64,000 bases of DNA, taken from positions 65,983 through 129,982 of the forward strand of contig CACZFM010000011.1 in assembly GCA_902780495.1 (NCBI GenBank). The letters run 5' to 3'. Of this stretch, positions 17,697 through 63,346 are shown one piece after another (the stretch's first letter is position 1; every line of letters begins with the position of its first letter). The notes beneath the pieces are model-generated. The model did not search any database. It saw only the letters and a list, made by a program, of their open reading frames with translations, and had not been told where the DNA came from. Source of the stretch: an uncultured Bacteroidales bacterium (GTDB lineage Bacteria > Bacteroidota > Bacteroidia > Bacteroidales > Paludibacteraceae). Both the position numbers and the translations under genes were made by a program.

Positions 17697-17721
17697 CCAA
17701 TCATATAAAAGAGCAGATAAG

Positions 17722-18027: not shown

Positions 18028-18040
18028 TTTTTCCGGCCCT

Positions 18041-19132
18041 ATGGATTTACACTGCCAATTGATATTGGACGAGTATGATGCCCGTCTTGCGGAGTTTCAA
18101 CGCCTGGAACAAATCGTACAGAAGACGCTGAAAGAGGCACTGGAACGCAATGCGCTGATGGTTACCGCTGTCACCACGCGCATCAAAACAAGGGATAGCT
18201 TGACCAACAAGTTGGAACTGAAGGGCGGAAAATATCGCTCTATGAACGATATAACCGACATTCTTGGCGCGCGCATCATTACCTTCTACACTGATGATGT
18301 GGACCGCATCGCAGCAATGGCGGAACAGATGTTCGAGATTGATTGGGCGAACTCGGTGGACAAACGTCGTCTCCATGATTTGGATAGTTTTGGTTATAAC
18401 TCGCTTCACTATATCTGCCGCTTGCCCAAAAATATCATTGATGTGCCCGAATGTCCGCAGTTGAACCAAATACGGTTTGAATTGCAGTTGCGTACCACCT
18501 TGCAACATGCTTGGGCGTCCATCAACCACGACACCGGTTACAAATCGGACATAGAGATTCCGCGTGAGTATATGCGCCAGATGAACCGCCTTTCCGGTAT
18601 TCTTGAGATGGCGGACGATGAGTTCAGCCGTATTCGTATCGAACTGAACGATTATCGGAGACGGGTGCATAATCTGGTCAAGAACGGTGAGTTGGACAGC
18701 GTGCAACTGGATGGTGATACTTTCCGAAGTTATCTGCTCGCACGGCCGTTCGATTCTTTGAATAAGCGCATTGCCGCCATCAATCAGGCGGAAATTCAGG
18801 AAGTGTCGCTCCTGCCCTATCTGCGTGTTTTCAAGGCGTTTGGCTGCCTCACGTTGGGCGATGTGGACCGTTTGAGAAGAAAGTATGAGGATGAGGCTTA
18901 TTATCTGTCGCGGCACCAATTGGGCAATACCGATATTGATATCCTTTCATCATCTGTAGGAATACAGAATATCTGCATCGTCTGCATCTTGAAGCAGGGA
19001 GGTGGAAGAATAGGACTTGTACGCCTTTTCAATGCGTTGAACGGGCAGAGTCCTCAAAATGAATTGCTGGCGGACATGATGTACAATCAGGCTGCAAGTA
19101 TGCCTTTTATGAATAACGGAAACAAGTTGTAA
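18041..19132 (+). CDS. RelA/SpoT-domain protein (small alarmone synthetase type) with an uncharacterised C-terminal extension of about 180 aa
   Basis: DILGARIITFYTDDV, YNSLHYICRL and ELQLRTTLQHAWASINHD are synthetase-fold motifs. ATG at 18041 is preferred over the TTG at 18014. Confidence 0.85.
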   Translation: MDLHCQLILDEYDARLAEFQRLEQIVQKTLKEALERNALMVTAVTTRIKTRDSLTNKLELKGGKYRSMNDITDILGARIITFYTDDVDRIAAMAEQMFEIDWANSVDKRRLHDLDSFGYNSLHYICRLPKNIIDVPECPQLNQIRFELQLRTTLQHAWASINHDTGYKSDIEIPREYMRQMNRLSGILEMADDEFSRIRIELNDYRRRVHNLVKNGELDSVQLDGDTFRSYLLARPFDSLNKRIAAINQAEIQEVSLLPYLRVFKAFGCLTLGDVDRLRRKYEDEAYYLSRHQLGNTDIDILSSSVGIQNICIVCILKQGGGRIGLVRLFNALNGQSPQNELLADMMYNQAASMPFMNNGNKL

Positions 19133-19140
19133 GAAATACT

Positions 19141-19980
19141 ATGTCACCTGTTCTGATTGATTTGAATGAATACGAACGTACCGGCGAAGGGGCGAACGGT
19201 GCAAGTTATAACCACAAAACTGACAAGGCGGTGATGCTGAAAATGTATCTTCGCAATTTTGAGTCTGCCCAAAAAGAGTTGGAGGTCGCGAAAAAAGTGT
19301 ATGAGGCCGGTATCCCGACGCCCGAACCAGGAGACCTCGTGACGGATGGCGAACGGATGGGAATCCGTTTCCGGAGGATAGAAGGCAAGAAATCTTATTC
19401 GAGGGCTTGTGGTGACAATCCGGAACGGACGGAAGAGTATGCCCGTGAGTTTGCGCAACTCTGCAAACGCCTGCACGCTACTCATGTGGATACAACCAAA
19501 TTCGAAAATGTCAAGAACCGCCTCTATGCCATGTTGAAGGCCAATCCTTTTTTCTCGGACGAAGAGAAACGCAAAATACATGACTTCATCGCCAATGCTC
19601 CGGATGCCGATACGGCTATCCATGGCGATTTGCAGTATAGCAACGGTATCTTTGTGGAGAAAGACGGAAAGCGCACGCCGTATTTCATTGACCTCGGCGA
19701 TTTCTGCTACGGCTATCCTATGTTCGACATCGGAATGGTTTACCTCTGCTGCTGCTTGAACGAAGAGGCGTGGACGTTGGAACAATACCACATGTCTAAT
19801 GCTACGGCCGCACGCTTCTGGGATGCTTTTGCTGCCGAGTATTTCGGACCGGATGCGGATATGCAGCAGGTGATGAAAGAGGTGAAAATCTATGCGGGAC
19901 TCAAAACGCTTATCATTGAGCGGGATACGCATCGGCCGATGCCGCAGTTCCGTGCAATGTTGGAAGGTACTGTTTATTAA
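19141..19980 (+). CDS. APH/choline-kinase-like phosphotransferase family protein
   Basis: Brenner-type catalytic loop HGDLQYSN, followed by FIDLGDF. Confidence 0.8.
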   Translation: MSPVLIDLNEYERTGEGANGASYNHKTDKAVMLKMYLRNFESAQKELEVAKKVYEAGIPTPEPGDLVTDGERMGIRFRRIEGKKSYSRACGDNPERTEEYAREFAQLCKRLHATHVDTTKFENVKNRLYAMLKANPFFSDEEKRKIHDFIANAPDADTAIHGDLQYSNGIFVEKDGKRTPYFIDLGDFCYGYPMFDIGMVYLCCCLNEEAWTLEQYHMSNATAARFWDAFAAEYFGPDADMQQVMKEVKIYAGLKTLIIERDTHRPMPQFRAMLEGTVY

Positions 19981-19995
19981 AACGGAGTAGGGAAG

Positions 19996-20577
19996 ATGGG
20001 AAACAAGTATATGGATAGCACCCTGCTGGACAGGGCAATCGTTTTTGCCGTGGAGGCACATCGTAACACGGAAAGACGCGGAAAGGGATTCCCTTATATC
20101 GTGCATCCGATGGAAGCCGTGGAAATTGTGGCAACCATCACCAATGACCAGGAATTGTTGGCGGCGGCCATCTTGCATGATACCATTGAGGATACGGATG
20201 TCGCGTATGAGCAATTGAAACGCGAGTTCGGTGACAGGATTGCTGATATCGTGTATGCCGAGAGCGACCGCTTTGTAGAAGGTGTCAGCGAGGAGAATAG
20301 TTGGCATGCGCGCAAGCAGGCGGCTATCACTCGTTTGGCGGAAGCACCGCATGATGCCAAAGTCGTGGCTATGGGCGATAAACTCAGCAACATGCGGGCC
20401 ATCGCAAGGGATTATAAAATGAAAGGGGATGCTTTGTGGCAGATTTTCCATGTCACCGACAAAGAATCTCATGCCTGGCACTATCGCGGATTGGCGGACT
20501 CGTTGGCGGAACTGAAGGACACGTTTGCCTATCAGGAGTTCGTCGCCCTGATAGAGCAGGTCTTTGGCAATAGATAG
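19996..20577 (+). CDS. stand-alone HD-domain (p)ppGpp-hydrolase-like protein (small alarmone hydrolase type)
   Basis: YIVHPMEAV...AAILHDTIEDTD is the RelA/SpoT hydrolase HD signature. 193 aa. Confidence 0.85.
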   Translation: MGNKYMDSTLLDRAIVFAVEAHRNTERRGKGFPYIVHPMEAVEIVATITNDQELLAAAILHDTIEDTDVAYEQLKREFGDRIADIVYAESDRFVEGVSEENSWHARKQAAITRLAEAPHDAKVVAMGDKLSNMRAIARDYKMKGDALWQIFHVTDKESHAWHYRGLADSLAELKDTFAYQEFVALIEQVFGNR

Positions 20578-20730: not shown

Positions 20731-20977
20731 TATCAGGATTCCATTTTTGATAAATCATATCCTGCGTAGGTGCTCAAATCCATTATTTCAGTGATGTGGA
20801 AAAAGTCTCGTTTATGCCGTGCGTGTCGGTTTTTGTGCCCATATCGGCGGTGGCCATGATAAATAAAAATTTTAATTCAAAAGAATGCCTCGCCACGCCA
20901 CGCCTTTTAGAGCTTTCGTTGTTTTGCCACGGTGCTTATATATAGGCAAGGCATGGCTGCTTTTTTTTTCTTTATTA

Positions 20978-21068
20978 ATTTTCTTTTGGTTCTTTTCTTT
21001 TATCAGCTTTCTTTTTTGTGTGCTGTGCGGCACTCTAAACGATCTGCTGCGCTGTATGCTTTTTTCGC
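20978..21068. repeat. polypyrimidine-rich repeat, copy 2 of 2
   Basis: attttcttttggttcttttcttttatc...gcggcactctaaacgatctgctgc aligns with 9010-9101. Confidence 0.65.
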
Positions 21069-21128
21069 TCGCTTTTCTTCATCCTTTTTTGCAGATTCCC
21101 TCTAATTTAACAAAAAACTACAAATAAA

Positions 21129-21160
21129 TTTGCGCACTCCAAAATTTTTTACTACCTTTG
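21129..21160 (+). promoter_or_regulatory. Bacteroidetes-type promoter (TTTG, 20 nt, TAccTTTG) driving leader L1
   Basis: tttgcgcactccaaaattttttactacctttg. Confidence 0.7.
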
Positions 21161-21300
21161 CAGTCGGAAATGAAACCTATCGTCCTCTCTCACGGACGTT
21201 AAACGTGAGGGCGCTGGTGCTGACAGCGTAAAAAAGCGGTGACATACTGAATAAAAAGAAGCGTTTGCTTTACTCTTGAAACTGAAAACTTAGGAACTTT
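21161..21300 (+). promoter_or_regulatory. conserved 5' leader RNA motif, copy L1 (hairpins 21181-21198 and 21212-21228, then GTAAAAAAG)
   Basis: Aligns with 54045-54305. The first hairpin, cgtcc/ggacg, is identical in both copies. The second hairpin is cgctg/cagcg here and cactg/cagtg in L2. Confidence 0.6.
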
Positions 21301-21481
21301 TCAATACAATGGTAAGGGCAATGCAATATGTTTCCACGATAGTGGCGTGGAAATCTATCTGCATACTTACCATTACAAGGTTTCCTAAGACCGTCAGTTT
21401 CGGGTGTGTGGCATAGAGTCCCACGCTTTTATTATGCAACCAATCCTTGCCGGGGCTACAAGGAGAAATAAAAAAGATGAA

Positions 21482-22159
21482 ATGAGACGAATTTTCTTTA
21501 TTGTGATGTGTACATTATGTACCACTTGTATCGATGCACAGATTGAGGTTACTAAATTTTTAGGCATTCCTGTTGATGGATCTAAACAACAAATGATTTC
21601 ACAACTTAAGGCAAAAGGATACAAATATGACCCCACATTGGATTATTTGACGGGTGAGTTTAATGGAAGAGATGTTAACATACATATTGCGACCAATAAC
21701 AATAAAGTTTATCGCATAGTGCTTGAAGATGCTTTATACTCTTCAGAAACTGATATAAAAATTAGATTTAATACCCTTTGTCGCCAATTCAAAAACAATG
21801 AAAAGTATTTGAAGCCTTCTTTGAATGAGTATGAAATATCAGAAACAGAAGATATATCATTTGAAATGAGTTGTCATAATAAACGCTATGAAGCGTCATA
21901 TTATCAAGTTACAAATCAATTGGATTCTGTAACAATGACGAATAAACTACAGGAATTTCTTTTCTCCAAGTATGGAAAAGATTTGTCAAATCTGACAGAG
22001 GAACAAAAAATGGACGTTTTAGCATCCTCGTTACTTTTTTATTTGAACCTATATGAGGATAACTCTGTGTGGTTTATGATAAATAGACGCTACGGAAAAT
22101 TTGGAATTCTAATGTATTATGATAATAATCATAATCGTGCTAATGGTGAAGATTTGTAA
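21482..22159 (+). CDS. hypothetical secreted protein or lipoprotein (AT-rich gene)
   Basis: Signal-peptide-like MRRIFFIVMCTLCTTCIDAQ. I recognise no motif. Start moved to the ATG at 21482. Confidence 0.6.
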   Translation: MRRIFFIVMCTLCTTCIDAQIEVTKFLGIPVDGSKQQMISQLKAKGYKYDPTLDYLTGEFNGRDVNIHIATNNNKVYRIVLEDALYSSETDIKIRFNTLCRQFKNNEKYLKPSLNEYEISETEDISFEMSCHNKRYEASYYQVTNQLDSVTMTNKLQEFLFSKYGKDLSNLTEEQKMDVLASSLLFYLNLYEDNSVWFMINRRYGKFGILMYYDNNHNRANGEDL

Positions 22160-22173
22160 TTTGTAATATCACA

Positions 22174-22572
22174 ATGAAAGACAAAAAATCATTTTGGGGC
22201 GGAGTCGCCGTTGGAGTCGTCGGAACAATTCTATTACTTTTTGTGTTGGCCATTGGTCATGAGAAGAATGATGATCTTGTTGGTGCTACTATGTTTGACC
22301 AACCAGGAGAAGTAATTAACGAGCAATCGTTTAAAGTGCTACAGGTTGTTAATGAAAACTCGGCATTAGTATATGGAAAAAAGAATGCTCGCGATAAATA
22401 CTATTCTGGAACATTGTACATGATTCGAAGCAATGAACAAGAATACTATTATGACGAGGAAATAATCCATGTTCCATCAGATAAAATCATCCGTCAAGTA
22501 GGAATTTATCAATATACAAATAAGCTCAACACACAAAAAACGGTACCCATTATAAAGATAATGGATCGATAA
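22174..22572 (+). CDS. hypothetical membrane-anchored protein (AT-rich gene)
   Basis: N-terminal TM segment FWGGVAVGVVGTILLLFVLAIG. 132 aa. Confidence 0.55.
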   Translation: MKDKKSFWGGVAVGVVGTILLLFVLAIGHEKNDDLVGATMFDQPGEVINEQSFKVLQVVNENSALVYGKKNARDKYYSGTLYMIRSNEQEYYYDEEIIHVPSDKIIRQVGIYQYTNKLNTQKTVPIIKIMDR

Positions 22573-36161: not shown

Positions 36162-36294
36162 CTTTCTTGTTTGTTTTGTTACTTTATTCAGACCTTGTTG
36201 CCGGCGGAGTTATCTCTTTGCCGTTTCGTGATGGGTCCTACTTATCATCACAAAAAAAAGCCTTTCGGCAAACTTGCCTTACGGCCATCTTTTG

Positions 36295-54012: not shown

Positions 54013-54044
54013 TTTGGTTATTTCACAAAAAAGCATTACCTTTG
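54013..54044 (+). promoter_or_regulatory. Bacteroidetes-type promoter P1 (TTTG, 20 nt, TAccTTTG) of the glycan operon leader
   Basis: tttggttatttcacaaaaaagcattacctttg. Confidence 0.7.
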
Positions 54045-54305
54045 CAGCGAATTTGAAACACTCTCGTCCTCTCTCACGGACGTTAAACCAGAGGGCACTG
54101 GGCTCAACAGTGTAAAAAAGAAAAACTATTCCCCACTGCAAAAAAATCATAAAACATTTGGTCAGTTCAAAAAAAAGCAGTACCTTTGCACCCGCAAACT
54201 CACGCTGGGGTGTCTGCATAGATGTCACAGGTGAGGGCGCAGACATATTGAATGGCGTTTGCTAACGCTTGTTTTTGACTTTCTGAAAACTAGGAATCTT
54301 CAGAT
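54045..54305 (+). promoter_or_regulatory. conserved 5' leader RNA motif, copy L2 (hairpins 54065-54082 and 54096-54112, then GTAAAAAAG), interrupted by a partial duplication
   Basis: Aligns with 21161-21300. An extra block of about 120 nt (54121-54240) carries a second promoter and a diverged copy of the gtgagggcgc segment. Confidence 0.6.
54157..54188 (+). promoter_or_regulatory. Bacteroidetes-type promoter P2 inside the leader
   Basis: tttggtcagttcaaaaaaaagcagtacctttg. Confidence 0.6.
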
Positions 54306-54554
54306 TTGTTGTTCGAAAACAAGTAGTGGTAGATGCTCATGGGTGTATAATTACGCCCGCGTGTATTTTTGTATCTAATATACAACGTAACGATACGCGC
54401 GTGTGTTCATATACACGGCGTGGGTTTCTGCATTGCTTATTCGACAACAAGGGTTTTCCTAGTACCTCAGAAAGCGGATAAGCAAGAGAAGAAATCCGCG
54501 TTTTATTTGACTGCCGGAAACAAAGTTTTCCCCGTCTTGACAAGGATTTGGCAA

Positions 54555-54585
54555 CCGCCATCTATGTCGAGGCGGGGATTTTTTT
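54555..54585 (+). terminator. intrinsic-terminator-like hairpin inside the leader, about 50 nt before the first gene
   Basis: ccgcc (54555-54559) pairs with ggcgg (54571-54575), followed by gga and seven T (54579-54585). Confidence 0.5.
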
Positions 54586-54635
54586 GTTGGTGTTGAGAGA
54601 TAATACACTCATAATAAGTTAAAGAAAATATTGGA

Positions 54636-55952
54636 ATGAATACCATAGGTGTGGTAACATATAAGAAAGAGAGCTTGTTTGATCCGGTTGGAAGAATTTG
54701 TGTTATGGGAGATAGAATCTTCCGTGCTATTTCTTGTGGATATGAGGAAAAAGTTCTATCTTTTTTATCATCGGATTTGTTCAAAGAGTTGCGAAATAGA
54801 AATTGGATTGTAGACACATGGATAGCAGAGGACGTTAAGATTGATAATTGTAAATTAATCCTTGAACATGAAAAGCTTACATGCATTTGTCCTGATGTCT
54901 GGACATTCAGTCAATGGGTGGATGCCGCAAAGTTTTATATTGAACTTCACGATTATTGCATTAATAATGGCGGTACAGTAAATGATGCTCGTCCTAGCAA
55001 TATCGTGTTCCAGAATGGAAAGCCTATATTTATTGATTTTGGCAGTTTAATTAAGTTGGATGAAGATATAAGATTAAATTGGAGTAGAGATTTCTATATA
55101 TCATTTCTTCAGACGATTTCTTATTTGTCTGCTAGAGAGTATTTCTATGCATTTGCGTGGGCAAATAATGCTTATTGTTATTACATTGACAACCAGATAC
55201 TTCCGTCGAAGCGTATAGAGGATTCATTGGACTTCTATAGAACCTATCGGCATGTGATTAAATCTTATGATGTCTGTCGGCGTCAAAAACAAGCTCACAT
55301 CAGAGTGAGATTATACTCTACGGTAGCGTTTATAAAATTTTGTAATAAAATTGCCCGATGGTTATTTAACAAGAAAATAGATTGGAATTTATTCAAAATT
55401 ACAGCATTATATAAAGCCCCATCCTTATCGTGCATTGAGAGAATAGGATTGCCTTATTCTCTATCTGATATTCGGTCAATACATGAAATACATAACTTAT
55501 CTATAGTCCGTGAATTAACTACAATAAAGTCGCGTTTCCATATTAAGCGAATGCTGATGTATGGGAATGTCGGGCTATCTGAAATGAAGAGTGTTGCAGA
55601 ATCGACTAATATGGAAATTATAGTTGTCAGCCCAGACTTGGTTTACACTGATACTTTGTACCGCAACATAAAAAAGTGTGGTTTAAATATTCATGTGACA
55701 TGTGCAAACTTGCGTTTGGAATTGCGACAAAATGTACTAAACGATATAGCATCGGATATAGTATATATTCCGGAGAATAATCCATCATTCTTTCGTATGT
55801 CTCCTGTAGAATTATGTGCAGCGGTGCAAAAAGTTTCATCACGAGTAATGTTACCCACAAATTTGTATAGTCAAATAGCTTTACAAAATATGGGATTTAG
55901 CACTCAGGGGCAGTGTGATAATTATTTAATTTTAGAAAAATGTCAAGCATAA
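54636..55952 (+). CDS. hypothetical protein: N-terminal protein-kinase-like fold plus C-terminal Rossmann-like region
   Basis: NDARPSNIVF (DxxxxN catalytic loop) followed 11 aa later by IFIDFGS (DFG-like). The C-terminal 140 aa has a MYGNVG glycine-rich turn. AT-rich gene. Confidence 0.55.
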   Translation: MNTIGVVTYKKESLFDPVGRICVMGDRIFRAISCGYEEKVLSFLSSDLFKELRNRNWIVDTWIAEDVKIDNCKLILEHEKLTCICPDVWTFSQWVDAAKFYIELHDYCINNGGTVNDARPSNIVFQNGKPIFIDFGSLIKLDEDIRLNWSRDFYISFLQTISYLSAREYFYAFAWANNAYCYYIDNQILPSKRIEDSLDFYRTYRHVIKSYDVCRRQKQAHIRVRLYSTVAFIKFCNKIARWLFNKKIDWNLFKITALYKAPSLSCIERIGLPYSLSDIRSIHEIHNLSIVRELTTIKSRFHIKRMLMYGNVGLSEMKSVAESTNMEIIVVSPDLVYTDTLYRNIKKCGLNIHVTCANLRLELRQNVLNDIASDIVYIPENNPSFFRMSPVELCAAVQKVSSRVMLPTNLYSQIALQNMGFSTQGQCDNYLILEKCQA

Positions 55953-56923
55953 TGAAAAATATGAAACAATTGATATTAACTATTTTACGAAGAGGTTGGC
56001 ATCTTGTTTCCCGGCCAACACGTATCATCGCCAAAATCATCGTAAAATATAATCCCGATAAATGCCCTGATAAGTGGTATTTAAAGTTACAATGGGAAAA
56101 CTCGCATGATTATAAGCTTAATCTGAAGAACCCCAAAACCTTAAGCGAAAAAATAGTCTGGTTAAAATTATATGATAGAAAACCGCTATATACTGAATTA
56201 GTTGACAAATACAAAGCAAAATTCTGGCTATCTTCAAATTTTGGAAATGAGCATATCATACCAACTATTAAGCAATATAAAAGAGTTGATGATATTAATT
56301 GGGAAGAATTGCCCAATGAATTTGTGATAAAATGCAATCATGATAGTGGAAGTGTCTATATTTGTCGGGATAAAACAAAAGGTGTCTTGTATGATAAGCA
56401 CATGAAGTCCTTATCTATTCATGAGGTCGAGATCCAATTGCGAGAAGCTCTGACTAAAAACTATTATCTCCCCTGCCGTGAATGGCCTTATAAAAATGTA
56501 GTACCATGCATTATCGTTGAGAAACTTATGCTACAAAAGAGCGGGGAATTACCAAATGACTATAAATTGTTTTTTATCAATGGTGAATTCCAATTCGTTT
56601 ATTTGTCCTATGCAAGAGAAAGTATAGATGATCGTTGTACGTACGATGGAAATTGGAATCGTCTTCCGTTTGTGTATGTTGAAAAACAAACATATAGAGA
56701 TGGCATAAACACCGCTGTTGCTGAATGCCCTCAATCATTCCAAGAGATGATAAAGTTCGGAAAAGAAATTGCTAAAAACTTCAAATTTGTCCGTATAGAT
56801 TTTTATGATATAGACGGCAAAATGTATTTTGGTGAGATTACTCCATTTCATAGCGCAGGATGCGCTGAATTCTTTCCTGAGAAATACGATTTAATCTTTG
56901 GAGAAAAATTAAAACTTTCTTAA
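55940..56923 (+). CDS. ATP-grasp amidoligase, TupA-like family
   Basis: FVIKCNHDSGSVYIC, NDYKLFFINGEF and FVRIDFYDIDGKMYFGEITPFHSAG. Alternative start at 55952 (TAATG overlap). Confidence 0.75.
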   Translation: MSSIMKNMKQLILTILRRGWHLVSRPTRIIAKIIVKYNPDKCPDKWYLKLQWENSHDYKLNLKNPKTLSEKIVWLKLYDRKPLYTELVDKYKAKFWLSSNFGNEHIIPTIKQYKRVDDINWEELPNEFVIKCNHDSGSVYICRDKTKGVLYDKHMKSLSIHEVEIQLREALTKNYYLPCREWPYKNVVPCIIVEKLMLQKSGELPNDYKLFFINGEFQFVYLSYARESIDDRCTYDGNWNRLPFVYVEKQTYRDGINTAVAECPQSFQEMIKFGKEIAKNFKFVRIDFYDIDGKMYFGEITPFHSAGCAEFFPEKYDLIFGEKLKLS

Positions 56924-56924
56924 T

Positions 56925-58028
56925 ATGAAGTTCCCAAATAAATATCTACGTAACTTGAGGCCGTATAAGTTGGCTTCTCACAAAGTGTGGGCTGTTGCTC
57001 CGGAAAAACGTAAGGAAATCTTAAAATTGGATTGGAATGAGGCAACCATCCCACCAACACCTTTAGTGATGGAGCGGATAGAAGCACTGCTGAAAGAGCC
57101 ATCATTCTTCAATCTCTATCCGACAACATATAACGACGAGTTACTATCGCTGTTGGCGCAGTACGTGGAGTTACCCAAAGAGAACATTCAGTACTTCGGC
57201 AGTTCAGATGTGCTCCATGAGTATATCTGCAAGGCTTTCATTAGCGTGGGAGATCCTGTGATGATATTAGGTCCGAGTTATGATAATTTCCGCTTAACAT
57301 GCCAAGCCAATGGAGCCGATGTGTATTTCTCGTATTACAATGACGATTTTACGTTTGATACAGAGCGGTTCGAGAATGATATTATCACACGCGAACCGGC
57401 TGTAGTTTATATCTGCAATCCGAACAATCCCACCGGCAATGTGCATTCAAAAGAGTATATTGAGCACTTATTGCAGGAATATCCGGATACATTGTTCTTA
57501 ATAGATGAAGCCTATTACGAGTTTTCGGGTATCACGGTCAAAAATCTGGTTTTGAAATATGACAATATCCTCATCTCTCGTACGATGTCTAAGGCATTTG
57601 CATTGGCAAATTTCCGTTTGGGCTATTTGATTGCCGGAAAAGATAATGTGCAATTTATCAACAAGATACGTAATCCGAAGAACTTGAGCACGTTTGCACA
57701 AGTTGCTGGATGTGCAGCATTGAGTGATACGCAATATATGTGGAATTATGTGGAAGAAGTGCATCGCGGCAAGGATTATTTTGCGGAAGCTATGCAGAAG
57801 TATGCAGATAGATTGAAGGTGCATCCAAGTCATGGTAATTTTACGCTGATTGAATTCAAGACGTATGAAGATAAGATTGAGCTATTGAACCACTTAGCAG
57901 ATAATAATATTTTTGTGCGTGATACTACACAAGCGTCAATGGTACGCAACTGCTTCCGCATAACAATAGGAACAGTTGAGCAGATGAAAAGAATAATTGA
58001 TGCAATAGAGATATTCTATGCAAAATAA
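56925..58028 (+). CDS. PLP-dependent class I/II aminotransferase-fold enzyme (HisC/CobD-like aminotransferase or phospho-amino-acid decarboxylase)
   Basis: NPNNPTGN, and SRTMSKAFALANFRLGY with the Schiff-base Lys. Confidence 0.8.
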   Translation: MKFPNKYLRNLRPYKLASHKVWAVAPEKRKEILKLDWNEATIPPTPLVMERIEALLKEPSFFNLYPTTYNDELLSLLAQYVELPKENIQYFGSSDVLHEYICKAFISVGDPVMILGPSYDNFRLTCQANGADVYFSYYNDDFTFDTERFENDIITREPAVVYICNPNNPTGNVHSKEYIEHLLQEYPDTLFLIDEAYYEFSGITVKNLVLKYDNILISRTMSKAFALANFRLGYLIAGKDNVQFINKIRNPKNLSTFAQVAGCAALSDTQYMWNYVEEVHRGKDYFAEAMQKYADRLKVHPSHGNFTLIEFKTYEDKIELLNHLADNNIFVRDTTQASMVRNCFRITIGTVEQMKRIIDAIEIFYAK

Positions 58029-58689
58029 AAAAGAAAAGATAGCATTATTCGATTTTTGCGACACTTTGGTTAGTTTTCAAACTGCCAATGAGTATGTCCG
58101 ATTCTATATCAAACATCACGCGTCGTTTGCTGTTAAATTAAGACATATTTGTTATTTACTTATGTCGATAACAGGGCTTGTTTCAAGGATGGAAAATAGA
58201 GCACCTGACAAAAACATCAGAAAAAGAATGCTGCTGTGGCAATTAAAAGGTTGTCCTATAAAAAGGATGGAACAAGCGGCTATGGAATATTATCAGCAGC
58301 GCATAAAACCTTGTTTAATAATAGAAACGATTCATGAATTAACCCGATTGCAGAAAGAAGGATGGCGCATTTTGATTGTGAGTGGTGGATATGATTTGTA
58401 TATCAATCATTTTGCTCTCGAGTTCGGAATTTCCGGAAATGATGTTATTTCAAATCATCTTGTGTTTATCAATGGGATTTTCTCAGGGAGATATGATGTA
58501 GATTGCATGGGCAGCAAAAAAGTAGAAATATTAAATGACAAATTTAATCGCAAGAACTATGATGTAATTGCGTATAGTGATTCGGAAAGTGATTTGCCTA
58601 TGCTACTATGGGCAGACACGGCTATCGTTATATCTAAATCATGGGCGAAAAATTACAATTTTCAAGAAATAAGGATACCAACTTTATAG
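58018..58689 (+). CDS. HAD-IB-like hydrolase with an atypical motif I
   Basis: Motif I reads ALFDFCDTLV, with Cys where the Asp+2 general acid normally sits. SGGYD and YSDSESDLPML are the later motifs. Confidence 0.7.
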   Translation: MQNKKEKIALFDFCDTLVSFQTANEYVRFYIKHHASFAVKLRHICYLLMSITGLVSRMENRAPDKNIRKRMLLWQLKGCPIKRMEQAAMEYYQQRIKPCLIIETIHELTRLQKEGWRILIVSGGYDLYINHFALEFGISGNDVISNHLVFINGIFSGRYDVDCMGSKKVEILNDKFNRKNYDVIAYSDSESDLPMLLWADTAIVISKSWAKNYNFQEIRIPTL

Positions 58690-59610
58690 ATGAAGAAGTT
58701 CGCAATATATACAGCACTTATTGGAGGATACGACAGTATTCAACAACCGAAAGTCATTGACGATCAATTCGACTATTACTTGTTTACGGACGATATACAA
58801 GAAAAGGAAATCGGCATTTGGAAAGTACGTAGGGTGGAATACACGAATACAGATAAAACACGTATTGCTCGATACGTAAAAACGCATCCGCACCGTTTGC
58901 TTCCGGAATATGATGCTACACTTTGGATGGATGCCAATGTCCAAATTATATCTTCAAAAATATACGACCGTTTTATTTATTTGTCATCAAGTAATATTGA
59001 TGTGGCAAGTATATATCACCCTTTTCGTGATTGTATATATGATGAAGCCTTTGAGGTTTCGTATAGCAAAAGATATGGAAGATTGGAGCATGATGTTATA
59101 GCTATCAATTGGTGTCATTATCTTTTCCAAGAGTGTTATCCTTCTCATAATGGCTTATTTGAAACAAACATCTTGTTTAGAAAAAATACTGAGTCCGTAA
59201 ATGTGGCTAATGATTTATGGTGGGAATGTATCAATGACTTTTCGAAAAGAGATCAACTGTCATGTAATTATGTATTATGGAAGTATCAATTGAAACTAGA
59301 TTATTTCCTCCCTCAAGGAGAACATGCACAGCATTCATATGAAGTACGCTACATACCTCATGAACAAGTGTCTCGTCGGAAATTAGTAAATGCAGATGTC
59401 CTTGAACAATGGAGGTATAAGACAGTTAATTTATCTAATTGGACTTTGAAAATGTGGCAACGCGTTTGGAGAAAAGCATCTGAATCAAACAAGCCATTTG
59501 CCATACTCAACGTATATGGACTTGCTATGGGATTATTATGTTCTCCTCATTTACTTTTTAATGTAATTAAGCATCGAATAACGAAAATAATCAATAACTA
59601 TGAGCGATAA
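58690..59610 (+). CDS. DUF616-type glycosyltransferase
   Basis: FAIYTALIGGYD N-terminus, with YYLFTDD. Confidence 0.7.
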   Translation: MKKFAIYTALIGGYDSIQQPKVIDDQFDYYLFTDDIQEKEIGIWKVRRVEYTNTDKTRIARYVKTHPHRLLPEYDATLWMDANVQIISSKIYDRFIYLSSSNIDVASIYHPFRDCIYDEAFEVSYSKRYGRLEHDVIAINWCHYLFQECYPSHNGLFETNILFRKNTESVNVANDLWWECINDFSKRDQLSCNYVLWKYQLKLDYFLPQGEHAQHSYEVRYIPHEQVSRRKLVNADVLEQWRYKTVNLSNWTLKMWQRVWRKASESNKPFAILNVYGLAMGLLCSPHLLFNVIKHRITKIINNYER

Positions 59611-60697
59611 ACAACCTAAAGCAAGAGTGTTGGCATATTATCTGCCACAATTTCATCCGATACCAGAGAATGATGAATGGTGGGGAAAAGGATTTACGGA
59701 GTGGACGAATGTCGGAAAAGCGAAATCGCTTTTCCCAGGACATTATCAGCCACATGTTCCAGCTGATTTGGGCTATTATGATCTGCGTGTGCCGGAAACA
59801 CGTGAAGCACAAGCTCAATTGGCTCGTGAAGCAGGAGTGGAAGGATTTGTGTATTGGCATTATTGGTTCGGCAATGGAAAACGGCTATTAGAGCGTCCAT
59901 TCAATGAGGTCCTGACTTCCGGAAAACCGGATTTCCCGTTTGCACTCGCATGGGCAAATGAAACATGGAGCGGTAGTTTTCACGGACTGAAAGAAGGCAA
60001 CGTTTTAATAGAACAAACCTACCCGAGAGATGAGGATTTTATTACACACTTTAATACCGTGTTACCGGCATTCAAAGATAAACGGTATATCACTTGTGAT
60101 GAAAAACCGATGTTCTTTATATACAAACCGGAATGGATTGACGATATAATGAGACACTTCATAGAGTTATGGCAACAACTGGCTAAAGAAAATGGCTTGA
60201 AAGGAATCTATTTCGTTGCTATGTTAGATTCTATGTATGAAGAAGAATTGTCAAAGAAGAGATACAACCAAATGATGAAACTTGGGTTTGATGCAGTTAA
60301 TTCAATGAACTTATATCACGGTGACCTTGGATTAAAATGGCGTCTGTGGAATAAGTTTTTTAACAAAAAACTCAAATTATTCCCCCGCATGATGCCTTAT
60401 GATATGAATAGGATGGCAGGGGCATTGGATGCTGTTGAAAACGTATTCCCGATGATAACTTCTAATTGGGATCATACTCCTCGTTCCGGCAAAAGAGGAC
60501 TTGTGCTAAGTGGCTGTACACCGGGTGCTTTTAAGAAAAACTTGCATACCTTTATTGAGCGAATCTCCAACAAACCTCTAGAGCATCGTATCTTATTACT
60601 TAAGTCGTGGAATGAATGGGCGGAAGGTAACTATGTGGAGCCGGATTTGAAATATGGGCATCAGTATTTAGATGCTCTGAAAGAAGAAATCTATTGA
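59600..60697 (+). CDS. WbsX-like (GH99-like fold) glycosyltransferase family protein
   Basis: AYYLPQFHPIPENDEWWGKGFTEWTNV. Confidence 0.75.
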   Translation: MSDKQPKARVLAYYLPQFHPIPENDEWWGKGFTEWTNVGKAKSLFPGHYQPHVPADLGYYDLRVPETREAQAQLAREAGVEGFVYWHYWFGNGKRLLERPFNEVLTSGKPDFPFALAWANETWSGSFHGLKEGNVLIEQTYPRDEDFITHFNTVLPAFKDKRYITCDEKPMFFIYKPEWIDDIMRHFIELWQQLAKENGLKGIYFVAMLDSMYEEELSKKRYNQMMKLGFDAVNSMNLYHGDLGLKWRLWNKFFNKKLKLFPRMMPYDMNRMAGALDAVENVFPMITSNWDHTPRSGKRGLVLSGCTPGAFKKNLHTFIERISNKPLEHRILLLKSWNEWAEGNYVEPDLKYGHQYLDALKEEIY

Positions 60698-60708
60698 GAA
60701 GATTAAAT

Positions 60709-61677
60709 ATGCCGATACTCTCCATTATAATTCCTGTATATAACGTCGAAAAGTATCTTCGTCGCTGTTTGGATAGCGTCTTGTCACAATCTTTCCGCGA
60801 CTACGAGCTTCTACTTGTTGATGACGGAAGTAGCGATCAGTCCGGTGCTATATGCGATGAATATGCGGTTCGTGATGAGCGGATACGTGTATTTCACAAA
60901 TCCAATGGGGGTGTCTCATCTGCTCGCAATGTGGGATTAGAGCACTCTAAAGGAGAATGGATTTATTTCGTGGATGCAGATGATGAAGTGTTAGCGGATG
61001 GCATCTCTTCCATGTTAGGGGCAGCAAGTGGATACGAGGCAGTGTTAGCAAGTTTTGAAAGTTGCAATAGGGACGGAGAAAGATTATATCAAACCACGAT
61101 AGGAACTAATAAGATTATGTCCCGAGAGGATAGTATTCGAACTTTATATGGAGAATCGAAAACGCTCGTAGGTATGTGGGGATGGTTATGGGTACGTTTA
61201 TTCAGGAATGAGATAATCAAAAAGAATAACTTGAGGTTTGATACAAATGTTAGCTATAATGAAGATGGTTTGTTTATTGCAGAGTATATATGTCATATAA
61301 GCACCCCTGTTCGTTATGTGGATTCTTTAGTATATCGATACTATGAAACCGATACAAGCGTCATGGAGTCCACAAAACGCTATTTTAATCCAAAGGTATT
61401 AACGAGTTTCGCTTCGTTAGTTCTGATGTATCAGTGCATTGCAAAGGATGCGGAATTGGATACAGAACTACTACGCATTGCTAAAGATGGTATCATCAAC
61501 CGCTATTTGATGATACGCGGACAGATGGAACAACATAATGCGGTTGATAAAGTTGTCCTCAAAGATTTCCGTCATCAATGCGTCCAAGAATGTGGGATTC
61601 TGTTTGTGGTTGGATATATGATACGGCGGGCAAAACGAAGAATAACGAATTTAATAAAACGAAAACTGAAAATATAA
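60709..61677 (+). CDS. family-2 glycosyltransferase
   Basis: LSIIIPVYNVEKYLRRCLDSVLSQS, LLVDDGSSDQS and FVDADD. ATG at 60709 is preferred over the TTG at 60694. Confidence 0.85.
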   Translation: MPILSIIIPVYNVEKYLRRCLDSVLSQSFRDYELLLVDDGSSDQSGAICDEYAVRDERIRVFHKSNGGVSSARNVGLEHSKGEWIYFVDADDEVLADGISSMLGAASGYEAVLASFESCNRDGERLYQTTIGTNKIMSREDSIRTLYGESKTLVGMWGWLWVRLFRNEIIKKNNLRFDTNVSYNEDGLFIAEYICHISTPVRYVDSLVYRYYETDTSVMESTKRYFNPKVLTSFASLVLMYQCIAKDAELDTELLRIAKDGIINRYLMIRGQMEQHNAVDKVVLKDFRHQCVQECGILFVVGYMIRRAKRRITNLIKRKLKI

Positions 61678-61681
61678 GAAT

Positions 61682-63346
61682 ATGATACGTACGGCAGTCA
61701 TAATGGCAGCAGGAATGGGAACGAGATTCGGTAAATACACAGAACTCATTCCGAAAGGTTTTGTGAAAGTGAATGGCATTCCAATGGTAATTCAATCCAT
61801 TGAAACCCTTATCTCATGTGGTATAGAACGCATTATTATCGGAACTGGCTATCACAAAGAGGCCTATGAAGCTTTATGCGAAGATTATCCGGAAGTAATC
61901 TGTTGTCATAGCCCTCGATATGCAGAAACGAATTGTCTATATACGTTATGGAACTGCCGGAATCTAATCGGTGATGAGGATTTCTTAATGTTGGATTCGG
62001 ACTTGATTTATGAACCCAAGGCTATCACAGAGCTTATTGAATGTAAATATCCCTCTGCGATTTTGACAACTTCGGTTAAAAAGTTCCAAGACTCATATTT
62101 TGTGGAGGAAGATAAAAGACATCGGTTTGTCAAATGGTCGAAAAACTATGGTGAGCTGAATGCCTGTGGAGAACTTATTGGTATTCACAAATTGAGCAAC
62201 AAGTTCTTCCGTGAAGTTTGCTGCGAGTTCGAAAGTGACTTGCTAAAAAATGAGCGCAGTAGTTATGAACCTTTCTTCCAAAAAGTATCGAATACGAAAT
62301 GCCCCATCTATATCCTCAAAATAGATGATTTGGAGTGGTATGAGATTGATGATGAGGCAGATTTGAAAGTGGCAGAACAGAGCGTACGTATAGAGCACAA
62401 ACGCCATACGTATCATACCGGAGTCAAAAACATGCTCAAAACGCCATATGTATGCTATCGTAATACGCGCTACTATGGCCATACGGAGAGAATAAATAAG
62501 GAAAATGCTGCATACTTATTAAATACGCTCAAAAAAGTATTTGAAGAAAACGGCATTGAACTTATTCTTGCTTATGGTACTTTACTTGGCGCAATCAGAG
62601 AACATGATTTCATAGGTCATGACAATGATATGGATACTATGATTTGGGGTAAACACATGCAAAAATGCTTGGACCTGGCTCCTGAATTAGAGAAATATGG
62701 TATCAAATTGGAATGCTATGTATTACCATGGATTTTCACGTATAGTTATAAAGGTGTAACTTGTGACATAGATCTCATCAATGAACCAATTTACCCCTTA
62801 AATAAACGTTATTGTCTCTTAGAATCGCAATATATTCAGCGTTCGTTTTTTGAACACACGGAGAAATATGAGTTCCAAGGTGAAATGCATAATGTTCCTG
62901 CACATCCGGAAGTCCTTTTGGAATACCACTACGGTAAGAACTGGCGTATTCCGGGAGGACCACACGCAAGATTGCAGTCCAAGTTATTCTTCTGGTATTA
63001 TATTGATAGACAGATTCAACGAGTAAAACGTTTCTTGAAACGTAAACTAGATAAAGAACATATCCAGTTCAAAGAAGTTAATGTGGCGCGCGTATTGGCT
63101 CACATGAAGAATATAGATGAGTTTACACTGAATGACATGCTTGCAAAATACAAAGCAGAGATGCCGGATGAATATAATAGATGGATTGTACAATTCCTGC
63201 ACACCGGCAATGCAGAGGAAATCATTGCAAAACAGATGTTCCAATATATGTATGAGCGTCACGGAAACTTTGGCGCGATTCTGACAAAATTTGACGGAAA
63301 CATGGAGCATTATAAAGATTTTCCATGGCATTGGGTAAAAGGTTAA
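61682..63346 (+). CDS. bifunctional LicC-like nucleotidyltransferase / LicD-family phosphotransferase fusion
   Basis: N-terminal AVIMAAGMGTRFG NTP-transferase signature. C-terminal half has AYGTLLGAIREHDFIGHDNDMD, the LicD signature. Confidence 0.8.
   Translation: MIRTAVIMAAGMGTRFGKYTELIPKGFVKVNGIPMVIQSIETLISCGIERIIIGTGYHKEAYEALCEDYPEVICCHSPRYAETNCLYTLWNCRNLIGDEDFLMLDSDLIYEPKAITELIECKYPSAILTTSVKKFQDSYFVEEDKRHRFVKWSKNYGELNACGELIGIHKLSNKFFREVCCEFESDLLKNERSSYEPFFQKVSNTKCPIYILKIDDLEWYEIDDEADLKVAEQSVRIEHKRHTYHTGVKNMLKTPYVCYRNTRYYGHTERINKENAAYLLNTLKKVFEENGIELILAYGTLLGAIREHDFIGHDNDMDTMIWGKHMQKCLDLAPELEKYGIKLECYVLPWIFTYSYKGVTCDIDLINEPIYPLNKRYCLLESQYIQRSFFEHTEKYEFQGEMHNVPAHPEVLLEYHYGKNWRIPGGPHARLQSKLFFWYYIDRQIQRVKRFLKRKLDKEHIQFKEVNVARVLAHMKNIDEFTLNDMLAKYKAEMPDEYNRWIVQFLHTGNAEEIIAKQMFQYMYERHGNFGAILTKFDGNMEHYKDFPWHWVKG

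What the first reader, a model, noticed from the sequence alone, without database searches (positions are those of the whole stretch)
21161..21300. Conserved promoter-proximal leader RNA shared by the two AT-rich accessory blocks, with one compensatory base-pair change
Seen in sequence: immediately downstream of two consensus promoters (21129-21160 and 54013-44), the transcripts would share one block.

The shared block is: ...c[ta]tcgtcctctctcacggacgttaaac[gt/ca]gagggc, then hairpin 2, then gtaaaaaag. Further on they share gacata[ct]tgaat...gcgtttgct...ctgaaaac(t)taggaa.

- Hairpin 1 (cgtcc-8 nt-ggacg) is identical in both copies.
- Hairpin 2 is cGctg...cagCg in L1 (21212-21228) and cActg...cagTg in L2 (54096-54112). 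This is a double change that keeps the pairing.
- Both leaders precede low-GC, apparently acquired genes (21482-22572 and 54636-63346).

Inference: this is a cis-acting regulatory RNA, for example an antitermination or loading site for a NusG-like factor or an RNA-binding-protein site. It could instead be the 5' part of a small RNA family. I cannot match it to a named Rfam family from memory.
Basis: seen in the sequence. Interest (0 to 1): 0.65.

Follow-up and report, generated by a model that had tools for sequence, protein, structure and literature searches.

The report
Pseudoknot-capped leader attenuator RNA family
The shared block is real: it is two small RNA pseudoknots at the front of a large, widespread, apparently undescribed leader RNA of rumen and gut Bacteroidales that carries a built-in terminator switch and sits before many unrelated accessory genes.

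Summary
An exact 25-mer and about 65 nt of homology follow Bacteroidetes-type promoters at 21129-21160 and 54013-54044. The G-C to A-U swap in hairpin 2 is real.

The block is only the front end of something larger. Each "hairpin" is an H-type pseudoknot (modules T1 and T2), in which the hairpin loop pairs with the strand after an A-rich linker. This is supported by permutation tests and covariation in relatives.

The pseudoknots are one of several interchangeable 5' caps. They are fused to an invariant GACAUAUUGAA that opens a 170-300 nt leader, which has:
- a small hairpin followed by U-rich sequence;
- a long covarying rod;
- a 3' segment, directly before a U tract, that can pair with the rod's 3' strand.

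Four mutually complementary segments give two nearly isoenergetic folds, as in an attenuator.

One capped metagenome scan returned 120 stretches, about 116 of them family members, from rumen and gut samples. Each has a co-oriented gene immediately downstream. Cargo includes surface proteins, restriction and defence genes, toxins and polysaccharide loci. Rfam 15 has no matching family, and block A only weakly resembles GP20-b.

Transcription, the trigger of the switch and the role of the caps remain untested.

The parts
21129..21160 (+). Locus 1 promoter, Bacteroidetes type (TTTG at 21129-21132, TACCTTTG at 21153-21160, 20-nt spacer)
   Evidence: Pattern TTTG-N19-21-TAnnTTTG has 10 matches in the window against 0.97 expected. 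The promoter region is homologous to L076 2000-2090.
21181..21209 (+). S1 is CGUCC 21181-21185 with GGACG 21194-21198. S2 is the loop 3' part CUCAC 21189-21193 with GUGAG 21205-21209. The linker is UUAAAC 21199-21204.
   Evidence: Loop-to-tail complementarity is 6.90 in matched modules against 4.79 +/- 0.32 in permuted ones, 0 of 5000 permutations as high. Many distinct S2 sequences occur in relatives.
21212..21241 (+). S1 is CGCUG 21212-21216 with CAGCG 21224-21228. The linker is UAAAAAAG 21229-21236. S2' is CGGUG 21237-21241, which here pairs only weakly with loop UGCUG 21218-21222 (three G-U pairs).
   Evidence: Alignment A6 is 93.2% paired, with 31 double-change cells against 10.9 +/- 2.6 shuffled. 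The covariance model scores 43.4 bits.
21241..21277 (+). Start of the core: near-invariant GACAUACUGAA (21241-21251), the small hairpin P0 (AAGC 21259-21262 with GCUU 21267-21270), and the U-rich run that follows. Together these form segment 1.
   Evidence: GACATRYTGAA...GCGTYT is shared by all family members recovered. Segment 1 to rod-interior duplexes have mean z -3.2.
21278..21401 (+). Long rod. P1 is GAAACUGA 21278-21285 with UCAGUUUC 21394-21401. P2 is UUAGGAA 21290-21296 with UUCCUAA 21382-21388. The interior holds segment 2 (21312-21335), segment 3 (21343-21369) and the apical hairpin UCCACG/CGUGGA.
   Evidence: The rod is the minimum-free-energy fold. The subfamily alignment has 14 pairs with compensatory changes.
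21401..21433 (+). Segment 4 plus U tract (terminator). CGGGUGUGUGGCAUAGAGUCCCACGC is followed by UUUUAUU. It can form a local hairpin or pair with segment 3.
   Evidence: The duplex of segment 4 with 21343-21369 is -29.1 kcal/mol. Family-wide, segment 4 to rod-interior duplexes have mean z -3.8.
21482..22572 (+). Locus 1 cargo: a 225-aa protein with a signal peptide (21482-22159) and a 132-aa protein (22174-22572). Both are low in GC and match no known family.
   Evidence: No family match. GC is 0.36. Other strains carry different cargo at this locus (L010, L011).
54013..54044 (+). Locus 2 promoter P1
54065..54094 (+). T1 pseudoknot, second copy. S1 is 54065-54069 with 54078-54082. S2 is in a shifted register: UCUCU 54070-54074 with AGAGG 54090-54094.
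54096..54120 (+). T2 module, truncated. S1 is CACUG with CAGUG, followed by UAAAAAAG. The S2' strand is missing, because sequence diverges from other strains right after GTAAAAAAG.
   Evidence: Strain variants L002 and L016 keep TGAGT or TGAGC, which pair with loop GCTCA. The covariance model scores 37.5 bits.
54157..54188 (+).
54199..54252 (+). Alternative 5' cap of the P2 unit, followed by GACAUAUUGAA at 54242-54252. CUCAC 54199-54203 pairs with GUGAG 54231-54235, and UGUCUGC 54211-54217 pairs with GCAGACA 54239-54245, in pseudoknot topology.
   Evidence: Read from the sequence. Homologous caps occur in L010, L076, L144 and L150.
54253..54474 (+). Core of the P2 unit. P0 is GGCGUU with AACGCU, 54254-54269, plus a U run. 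P1 is 54279-54286 with 54467-54474. P2 is CUAGGAA 54290-54296 with UUCCUAG 54456-54462. Segment 2 is about 54299-54338 and segment 3 about 54416-54444.
   Evidence: the minimum-free-energy fold here is the 1:2 plus 3:4 form. nhmmer relates it to L010 at 6e-13.
54475..54508 (+). Segment 4 (CGGAUAAGCAAGAGAAGAAAUCCGCG) plus the U tract
   Evidence: Duplex with segment 3 is -26.5 kcal/mol.
54555..54586 (+). Second intrinsic terminator (CCGCC...GGCGGGG followed by U7) between the leader and the first gene
   Evidence: Read from the sequence; it lies within the strongly structured region (z -7.65).
54636..63346 (+). Locus 2 cargo: a low-GC polysaccharide biosynthesis locus with TupA-like ATP-grasp, aminotransferase, HAD, glycosyltransferase and LicD/nucleotidyltransferase genes
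   Evidence: Other strains carry unrelated genes here (L002, L004).

Best explanation
The shared block is two tandem small H-type RNA pseudoknots, modules T1 and T2. Together they form one of several interchangeable 5' caps of a modular, cis-acting leader RNA family found in rumen and gut Bacteroidales.

**Layout of the leader, 5' to 3'.**
- The cap abuts an almost invariant, single-stranded GACAUAUUGAA.
- A small hairpin (P0) follows, with a U-rich run after it.
- Then comes a long rod (helices P1 to P5).
- Last is a segment that lies directly before a U tract.

**Proposed mechanism.** Four segments are mutually complementary.
- Segment 1 is P0 and the stretch after it.
- Segment 2 is the 5' strand of the rod interior.
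- Segment 3 is the 3' strand of the rod interior.
- Segment 4 is the stretch directly before the U tract.

The RNA can therefore fold in two ways. In the rod (2:3 pairing), segment 4 is left free. In the other fold, a 1:2 hairpin forms together with a 3:4 hairpin that is an intrinsic terminator. This is the layout of a transcription attenuator that sets how much transcription reaches the accessory gene or operon just downstream.

**Shown.**
- The repeat and its homologues.
- The pseudoknots, the rod and the alternative helices, by covariation and energies.
- The U tract.
- The strict position and orientation in front of genes.

**Inferred.**
- That the region is transcribed from the predicted promoters.
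- That the rod form lets polymerase read through.
- That an unknown factor recognising GACAUAUUGAA with P0 (arranged like a nut or pause site) sets the balance.
- That the pseudoknot caps insulate or protect the 5' side of the switch.
For: **Repeat and promoters.**

**Homologues.**
- The same species carries further copies in strain variants and other loci.
About 116 look like family members on reading, and 57 match known members outside the pattern region.
- There are 140 oriented cores in the DNA held. Each with enough downstream sequence is followed by a co-oriented ORF starting within about -80 to +400 nt of the end of the match, mostly within 130 nt.

**Pseudoknots.**
- T1: loop-to-tail complementarity 6.90 matched against 4.79 +/- 0.32 permuted, 0 of 5000 as high.
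- T2: 8.73 against 6.48 +/- 0.62, 0 of 5000.
- T2 alignment: 93.2% paired, 7 of 10 pairs with compensatory changes, 31 double-change cells against 10.9 shuffled.

**Rod.** 97.7% paired, 16 pairs with compensatory changes, 125 double-change cells against 38 +/- 6 shuffled. The window's own subfamily has 14 compensated pairs.

**Alternative helices.**
- 3:4 is 97.6% paired, with 14 double changes against 4.3 shuffled; slid controls reach at most 62%.
- 1:2 is 98.9% paired.
- The two folds average -54.6 and -51.3 kcal/mol.
- Window locus 2 folds as 1:2 plus 3:4, and locus 1 as the rod.
- Across 59 distinct members, segment 4 has mean z -3.8 and segment 1 mean z -3.2. Their best partners lie in the expected halves of the rod interior, 86% and 98%.

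**Strand specificity.** Invariant G-U pairs make the structure specific to the plus strand.

**Promoters in relatives.** 61 of 116 relatives have a TAnnTTTG box within 160 nt upstream.
Against: - There are no expression data, so transcription, 3' ends at the U tracts and regulated read-through are all untested.
- Segment 4 can also pair with segment 1 or form a local hairpin. The element could therefore terminate in every fold and act simply as a strong terminator or insulator.
- Covariation in 3:4 rests mainly on three sequences that changed together. 1:2 shows only one-sided changes.
- The four-way complementarity could partly be a legacy of a duplicated hairpin.
- No trigger is known: there is no conserved leader ORF, no ligand and no linked protein gene.
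- One leader in front of functionally unrelated genes is unusual for an attenuator.
- Sequences are related and the alignments are MAFFT-based, so shuffle counts overstate significance.
Confidence: 0.6

Rival explanations
1. Loading site for a processive antitermination factor; this is the first reader's preferred reading. GACAUAUUGAA with the P0 hairpin and its U-rich pause would recruit a NusG paralogue or another factor, or would modify RNA polymerase directly as put and EAR RNAs do. Polymerase would then read through the leader terminator and later terminators in AT-rich foreign genes.
For: - The arrangement of a linear motif followed by a hairpin resembles a nut site.
- P0 with its U run scores as a terminator or pause site.
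- Locus 2 has two terminators in series before a 9-kb polysaccharide operon.
- Cargo is horizontally acquired and low in GC.
- Bacteroides capsule leaders recruit UpxY at pause hairpins (PMC11685472).
Against: - No NusG, KOW or UpxY-like gene opens either locus.
- No factor has been identified.
- The conserved alternative pairings point to a switch within the RNA rather than a simple loading site.
- Nothing here tests protein binding.
Confidence: 0.2
2. A family of independent small RNA genes. Each would have its own promoter, a structured body and a terminator, and the 170-300 nt product would act in trans. The downstream genes would merely be neighbours, or would insert next to it.
For: - Promoter, structured body and U-tract terminator together make a complete small transcription unit.
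- Genomes carry several copies.
- Some copies lie next to tRNA genes.
Against: - Every copy with enough sequence has a co-oriented ORF close downstream.
- About 45% follow an upstream ORF, and about a quarter do so with no promoter box of their own.
- The interior sequence is highly variable while the pairing is kept, which fits a cis structure better than a trans-acting seed.
Confidence: 0.12
3. A DNA-level element: a recombination site or portable homology block that marks the borders of exchangeable gene cassettes, like an integron attC site or a repeated mobile element. On this view the RNA structure is secondary.
For: - Cargo differs between strains at both loci, with break points at module borders, for example right after GTAAAAAAG.
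- A chimeric element (L120) and a deletion variant (L075) exist.
- A tyrosine recombinase lies directly upstream in L036, L063 and L132, and some copies abut tRNA genes.
- Cargo resembles integron or defence-island content.
Against: - Usually there is one element per locus, not arrays.
- No recombinase lies near either window locus.
- Orientation relative to the downstream gene is strict.
- Promoters, U tracts, invariant G-U pairs and conserved alternative pairings are not expected of an att site.
- There are no matches in phage or plasmid collections.
Confidence: 0.1
4. T1 and T2 are miniature ligand-binding aptamers, built like preQ1-I riboswitches, that pass a metabolite signal to the attenuator downstream.
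For: - They share the preQ1-I architecture: a 5-bp stem, an A-rich linker and a second helix formed with the loop (PMC11625349).
- Stem and linker are conserved in sequence while the second helix varies.
- The last nucleotide of the module is the G of GACAU, so folding of the module could be coupled to the switch.
Against: - The preQ1 model gives no hit even at E <= 10.
- Cargo has no common metabolic theme.
- The modules are optional and can be replaced by plain hairpins.
- They also occur away from the core.
Confidence: 0.05

Closest known systems
GP20-b RNA motif (Rfam RF03003; candidate cis-regulatory motif upstream of phage GP20 genes)
   Same: The GP20-b consensus reads as the same two-module layout as block A. 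It has a short stem whose loop pairs with the strand after a GNCGUAAAA-type linker, then a second hairpin, then UAAAAAAGCG. It is the only Rfam family that touches block A.
   Different: - The score is 17.2 bits against a gathering score of 36.2, with E 0.36 in a 401-nt search.
- Other T1+T2 tandems give no hit.
- The context is not phage, and no GP20 gene is present.
- The resemblance is one of architecture, not established homology.
preQ1-I riboswitch aptamer and similar compact H-type pseudoknots with an A-rich loop in the stem minor groove
   Same: Size (about 30 nt), a 5-bp stem, an A-rich linker and a second helix made with the 3' part of the loop.
   Different: - No Rfam match.
- No link to queuosine genes.
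- Here the stem and linker are conserved in sequence and the second helix is variable, whereas preQ1-I conserves the loop nucleotides that contact the ligand.
- The modules occur in tandem, in either order, and are optional.
Classical transcription attenuators and riboswitch expression platforms (for example the trp leader with its 1:2, 2:3 and 3:4 pairings)
   Same: Four consecutive segments with mutually exclusive pairings, the last pair being a hairpin directly before a U tract, placed between a promoter and the regulated gene.
   Different: - No leader peptide and no known sensor.
- The 2:3 form is embedded in a long covarying rod with extra helices (P1, P2, P3).
- The regulated genes are functionally unrelated accessory genes.
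Leaders that recruit specialised NusG paralogues or act as antitermination RNAs (Bacteroides UpxY/ops, RfaH/ops, LoaP, lambda nut, HK022 put, Bacillus EAR)
   Same: A promoter-proximal conserved element in front of horizontally acquired, often polysaccharide or surface-structure operons, with a hairpin plus pause-like U run and terminators downstream.
   Different: - No locus-encoded NusG paralogue.
- No ops-like sequence recognised.
- The element is much larger and more structured.
- Function as an antiterminator is untested.
DUF805b RNA motif (Rfam RF02914)
   Same: It occurs inside the same leaders in relatives, between the terminator and the start codon (L070, 41.2 bits). Similar sequences occur in at least 12 loci.
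   Different: It is absent from the window. It is a separate 35-nt module, not part of block A or the core.
Integron attC sites and modular intergenic repeats (BOX, ERIC, Correia elements)
   Same: - An imperfect long hairpin with a conserved base and a variable tip.
- A modular build.
- A position next to exchangeable accessory genes.
- Evidence of recombination between copies.
   Different: - Single copies.
- Fixed orientation upstream of a gene.
- Own promoters and U-tract terminators.
- Alternative pairings.
- No integrase in the window.

Membership tests
GP20-b RNA (RF03003) | Covariance-model score at or above Rfam's gathering score (36.2 bits) | tested here: not met
   17.2 bits, E 0.36, at 21181-21238. 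No hit at 54065-54120 or in other T1+T2 tandems.
GP20-b RNA (RF03003) | Two hairpins followed by a UAAAAAAGCG tail | tested here: met
   The alignment shows both hairpins and the tail matching.
GP20-b RNA (RF03003) | Location upstream of phage GP20 genes | tested here: not met
   Downstream genes match no known family or are polysaccharide genes. No viral or phage matches.
preQ1-I riboswitch | H-type pseudoknot with an A-rich linker after the first stem | tested here: met
preQ1-I riboswitch | Match to the Rfam model and its conserved ligand-contacting nucleotides | tested here: not met
   No preQ1 hit at E <= 10 on either leader.
preQ1-I riboswitch | Control of queuosine synthesis or transport genes | tested here: not met
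   Cargo survey of 94 downstream proteins.
Terminator/antiterminator attenuator | Hairpin directly followed by a U tract, upstream of and co-oriented with the gene | tested here: met
Terminator/antiterminator attenuator | Conserved, mutually exclusive alternative pairings | tested here: met
   2:3, 3:4, 1:2. The two folds are near-equal in energy, and the pattern holds family-wide.
Terminator/antiterminator attenuator | Condition-dependent read-through | not testable with these tools
   Needs expression or in vitro transcription data.
UpxY/RfaH/LoaP-type (specialised NusG) leader | A NusG paralogue encoded at the start of the operon (the Bacteroides capsule rule) | tested here: not met
   The first genes after both leaders have no NusG or KOW domain.
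UpxY/RfaH/LoaP-type (specialised NusG) leader | A pause or ops element bound by the factor | not testable with these tools
   P0 with its U run looks pause-like, but binding cannot be tested.
Integron attC / cassette array | Adjacent integrase | tested here: not met
   Neighbours of both loci are housekeeping genes. Only L036, L063 and L132 among relatives have a tyrosine recombinase upstream.
Integron attC / cassette array | Arrays of sites separating successive cassettes | tested here: not met
   Almost always one core per locus of up to 14 kb.

The most novel reading that the evidence does not exclude
This is a previously undescribed, abundant RNA system of Bacteroidales: a portable expression-control unit in front of horizontally acquired accessory genes. 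It combines a promoter, interchangeable pseudoknot or hairpin caps, an invariant recognition motif and a bistable four-segment terminator switch. It would be read by a dedicated, still unknown factor. If so, a whole class of surface, defence and capsule genes would share one leader-encoded control point, and the conserved leader would double as the homology that lets cassettes be swapped between strains.
Probability: 0.3. Interest if true: 0.85.

Novelty: new variant of a known kind. Interest (0 to 1): 0.7.

Why it matters
Bacteroidales dominate rumen and gut communities. Their strain-specific surface proteins, capsules and defence genes shape phage resistance, competition and interactions with the host.

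A single conserved leader in front of many such genes, carrying a built-in terminator switch, would be a common control point for the variable part of these genomes. It would also give a handle for finding the factor that reads it.

The element is large, well supported by covariation, frequent in metagenomes and absent from Rfam 15, so it is a good candidate for a new RNA family.

The tiny pseudoknot modules are among the smallest recurrent structured modules seen. They may be useful as natural insulators or stabilisers for Bacteroides genetics.

Tried and rejected
- **Rfam.** The gathering search of the window returned only a tRNA. Permissive searches of both leaders gave only sub-threshold hits. 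Twenty relatives gave only tRNAs and one DUF805b. Other T1+T2 tandems gave no GP20-b hit.
- **Orthologous loci.** Patatin orthologues at 62-76% identity in related Paludibacteraceae have no leader after them, so synteny could not supply diverged copies.
- **Viral, phage and plasmid collections.** Three viral-contig scans and BLAST against phages and plasmids found nothing.
- **Literature.** Searches by name and by sequence strings found no description. The supplement of the paper that defined GP20-b and DUF805b is not held.
- **Common cargo protein.** The first proteins after four leaders are unrelated. Across 94 cargo proteins the commonest Pfam family (BspA-type LRR) was found in only 5, and most have no match.
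- **Leader peptide.** A UUG-started frame in segment 1 is not conserved between subfamilies (read).
- **Integron-like arrays.** Not seen.
- **rAID-1 clusters** (bioRxiv 10.1101/471110). Considered, because they have integron-like intergenic repeats. They have a recombinase and densely packed genes, which is not the case here, and their repeat sequences could not be compared.
- **Covariance model of T2.** It finds only the two known copies in the window and 17 in 100 relatives, all of them already known.
Full report
**1. The observation**

The window is from an uncultured rumen member of the Paludibacteraceae (Bacteroidales).
- The only genome-collection hit to the block is a yak-omasum MAG of that family.
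- Flanking proteins recur in rumen metagenome contigs and in Paludibacteraceae MAGs.

The 25-mer TCGTCCTCTCTCACGGACGTTAAAC occurs exactly twice, at 21180 and 54064, with none expected by chance. nhmmer aligns about 65 nt around it at E near 1e-8 to 1e-9.

This pattern rests on my own knowledge of Bacteroides promoters.

Hairpin 1, hairpin 2 with its G-C to A-U double change, and the downstream shared motifs are all present as described.

**2. What block A is**

Relatives show that each "hairpin" is half of a small H-type pseudoknot.

*Module T1* reads CGUC(N), loop, (N)GACG, UUAAAC, then a short strand that pairs with the 3' part of the loop.
- In the window this second helix is CUCAC with GUGAG.
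- In relatives it is replaced by CUUGC/GCAAG, CUUC/GAAG, CCGC/GCGG, CUCCCG/CGGGAG, UUUCGG/CCGAAA, UCUCC/GGAGA and others.
- Across 67 distinct candidate modules, including regex noise, loop-to-tail complementarity is 6.90 in true pairs against 4.79 +/- 0.32 when tails are permuted. None of 5000 permutations reached the observed value.
- The fifth pair of the first stem covaries (C-G, G-C, A-U). One relative changes the first pair from C-G to U-A.

*Module T2* reads CGCUG, a 7-nt loop, CAGCG, UAAAAAAG, then a 5-nt strand.
- In an alignment of 19 distinct copies, 93.2% of cells pair and 7 of 10 pairs show compensatory changes.
- There are 31 double-change cells against 10.9 +/- 2.6 in shuffles. 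Slid controls pair at most 50%.

*State of the two window copies.*
- The window's first T2 has a weak second helix with three G-U pairs.
- The second T2 copy (54096-54120) has lost its second-helix strand altogether. Strain variants L002 and L016 keep TGAGT or TGAGC, which pair with the loop GCUCA. In the window, sequence diverges right after GTAAAAAAG into a new promoter and a complete second leader unit.

**3. What block A is attached to**

The last nucleotide of the cap is the G of a nearly invariant GACAUAUUGAA. A pattern built from that motif and two downstream motifs was scanned once over metagenome contigs.
- All but about four are evident family members on reading.
- 57 have significant nhmmer similarity to known members outside the pattern region.
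- They come from rumen, human-gut and rodent-gut samples.

Upstream of GACAU the sequence is modular. It can be T1, T2, both in either order, a GCGCAA/UUGCGC hairpin, a plain hairpin right after a promoter, or a larger cap like that of the window's P2 unit. A covariance model of T2 finds it in 17 of 100 relatives and only at the two known sites in the window.

*Context of the leaders.*
- Of 116 leaders, 61 have a TAnnTTTG box within 160 nt upstream.
- 52 follow a same-strand ORF that ends within about 140 nt upstream of the core.
- Read from the upstream sequences, the caps that directly follow such an ORF typically start 4-8 nt after its stop codon.
- T1 or T2 can also occur away from a core.

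**4. The core**

Downstream of GACAUAUUGAA come a small hairpin (P0) with a U-rich run, a long rod, and a segment directly before a U tract.

*Evidence for the rod.*
- In 24 members of the shortest subfamily the rod (P1 to P5) is 97.7% paired.
- It has 16 pairs with compensatory changes and 125 double-change cells against 38 +/- 6 in shuffles. Slid controls pair at most 47%.
- P2 (GUAGGAA/UUCCUAC) is invariant, while P1 and P3 covary heavily.
- Several pairs are invariant G-U, so only the strand that reads towards the gene can form the structure.
- The window's own subfamily (12 members including 21241-21433) gives the same picture, with 14 compensated pairs.

**5. A four-segment switch**

The 16 nt before the U tract (segment 4) repeat the 5' strand of the rod interior (segment 2), so they can pair with the 3' strand (segment 3).
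- The 3:4 helix is 97.6% paired over 14 pairs, with 14 double-change cells against 4.3 in shuffles. Slid controls reach at most 62%.
- When 3:4 is imposed, the freed segment 2 pairs with segment 1 (P0 and the stretch after it). The 1:2 helix is 98.9% paired, with only one-sided changes that stay compatible.
- The two folds are close in energy, with means of -54.6 and -51.3 kcal/mol.
- In the window, locus 1 folds as the rod. Locus 2 folds as 1:2 plus 3:4, and its leader is far more stable than shuffles (z -7.65).
- Across 59 distinct members of all subfamilies, segment 4 pairs with the rod interior at a mean of -27.9 kcal/mol (z -3.8; 95% below -2). Segment 1 pairs at -20.7 kcal/mol (z -3.2).
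- Their best partners lie in the 3' and 5' halves of the interior in 86% and 98% of members.

This is the anatomy of a transcription attenuator. Which fold allows read-through, and what shifts the balance, is inference. Segment 4 can also pair with segment 1. No conserved leader ORF exists, and no factor is known.

**6. What lies downstream**

Every oriented core with enough sequence is followed by a co-oriented ORF starting close by, mostly within 130 nt of the end of the match. The proteins are unrelated to each other.

Pfam matches among 94 of them include:
- BspA-type leucine-rich-repeat surface proteins;
- PLD-helicase, restriction and methylase proteins;
- YafQ and Fic toxins;
- UDP-galactopyranose mutase;
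- a TonB-dependent receptor.

Most have no match, and many start with signal peptides.

*Window cargo.*
- Locus 1 carries two proteins that match no known family.
- Locus 2 carries a 9-kb low-GC polysaccharide locus, preceded by a second strong terminator at 54555-54586.

*Evidence of recombination.*
- Other strains carry different cargo at both loci. At the patatin locus the promoter and block A are retained.
- Chimeric and deleted elements occur.
- Recombination between leaders therefore happens. However, single copies per locus, fixed orientation, promoters, U tracts and alternative pairings argue that the selected function is at the RNA level.

**7. Comparison with known families**

- Rfam 15 has no family for the core.
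- Block A touches only GP20-b (RF03003), at 17.2 bits against a gathering score of 36.2. The consensus can be read as the same T1+T2 layout. Score, context and the lack of hits in other tandems fail the membership test.
- The modules share the fold class of preQ1-I aptamers (PMC11625349), but neither their model nor their gene context.
- Bacteroides capsule leaders recruit UpxY at pause hairpins (PMC11685472).
- DUF805b (RF02914) occurs between the leader and the start codon in relatives, not in the window.
- No paper in the library contains the signature sequences.

**8. Verdict**

The two hairpins are pseudoknots, and the block is an optional cap of a much larger element. The copy at locus 2 is a remnant.

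The element as a whole is best described as a new, widespread leader-attenuator family. Its structure is well supported, while its function is inferred.

Noticed in passing
L070 1328-1362; similar sequences in L098, L101, L106, L110, L117, L118, L145, L147, L150: The DUF805b RNA motif (RF02914, 41 bits) lies between the leader's terminator and the start codon. Similar sequences (GGAGKAAGCCGAAAAKCC...AGAGUAGGC) lie 15-30 nt before many start codons, including genes inside cargo. It is not present in the window.
   Followed up: partly
L016 3840; L046 2608 and 3441; L041, L045, L071, L089, L122, L128, L133: A second conserved motif, CCGAUGRGGCGAUGGGAUAUAAC, lies 10-20 nt before the ATG of signal-peptide proteins in 11 loci. 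No Rfam match was seen for it.
   Followed up: partly
window 54555-54586: A second strong intrinsic terminator (CCGCC...GGCGGGG followed by U7) lies after the attenuator and before the first gene of the polysaccharide locus, so two terminators stand in series.
   Followed up: partly
L075 3792-3860; L120 (minus strand): L075 is a natural deletion variant that keeps GACAU, P0, segment 4 and the U tract but lacks the whole rod. L120 is a chimera whose 5' half matches L125 and whose 3' half matches L059.
   Followed up: partly
L074 4107-4243; L095 about 560-660: Leaders start within a few nt of the 3' end of tRNA genes, and a T2-like module lies just before the tRNA in L074.
   Followed up: no
L036, L063, L132 (about 90 nt upstream of the core): The C-terminus of a tyrosine recombinase (HSSVQITKIYLGL) ends just before the promoter and leader of one distinct subfamily. 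This is reminiscent of the recombinase-associated gene clusters described in Bacteroidales.
   Followed up: no
window 15651-20577: A cluster resembling a partner-switching signalling module: a dCache/SpoIIE/HATPase sensor, a STAS protein, a small RelA_SpoT-type synthetase, an APH-family kinase and an HD hydrolase, directly upstream of locus 1.
   Followed up: no
window 20885-21127: An 80-aa ORF called as a gene in metagenome annotations lies in a T-rich non-coding-looking stretch shared with strain variant L011. It is probably not a gene.
   Followed up: no
L076 1925-2090: T1 identical to the window's follows a stop codon by 3 nt and is followed by its own terminator. Next comes a promoter region homologous to window 21085-21160 and a leader of the locus-2 type. 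This shows modules being recombined within one species.
   Followed up: partly
window 36294-36365 (minus strand): tRNA-Gln (UUG), the only Rfam or ARAGORN hit in the window.
   Followed up: yes
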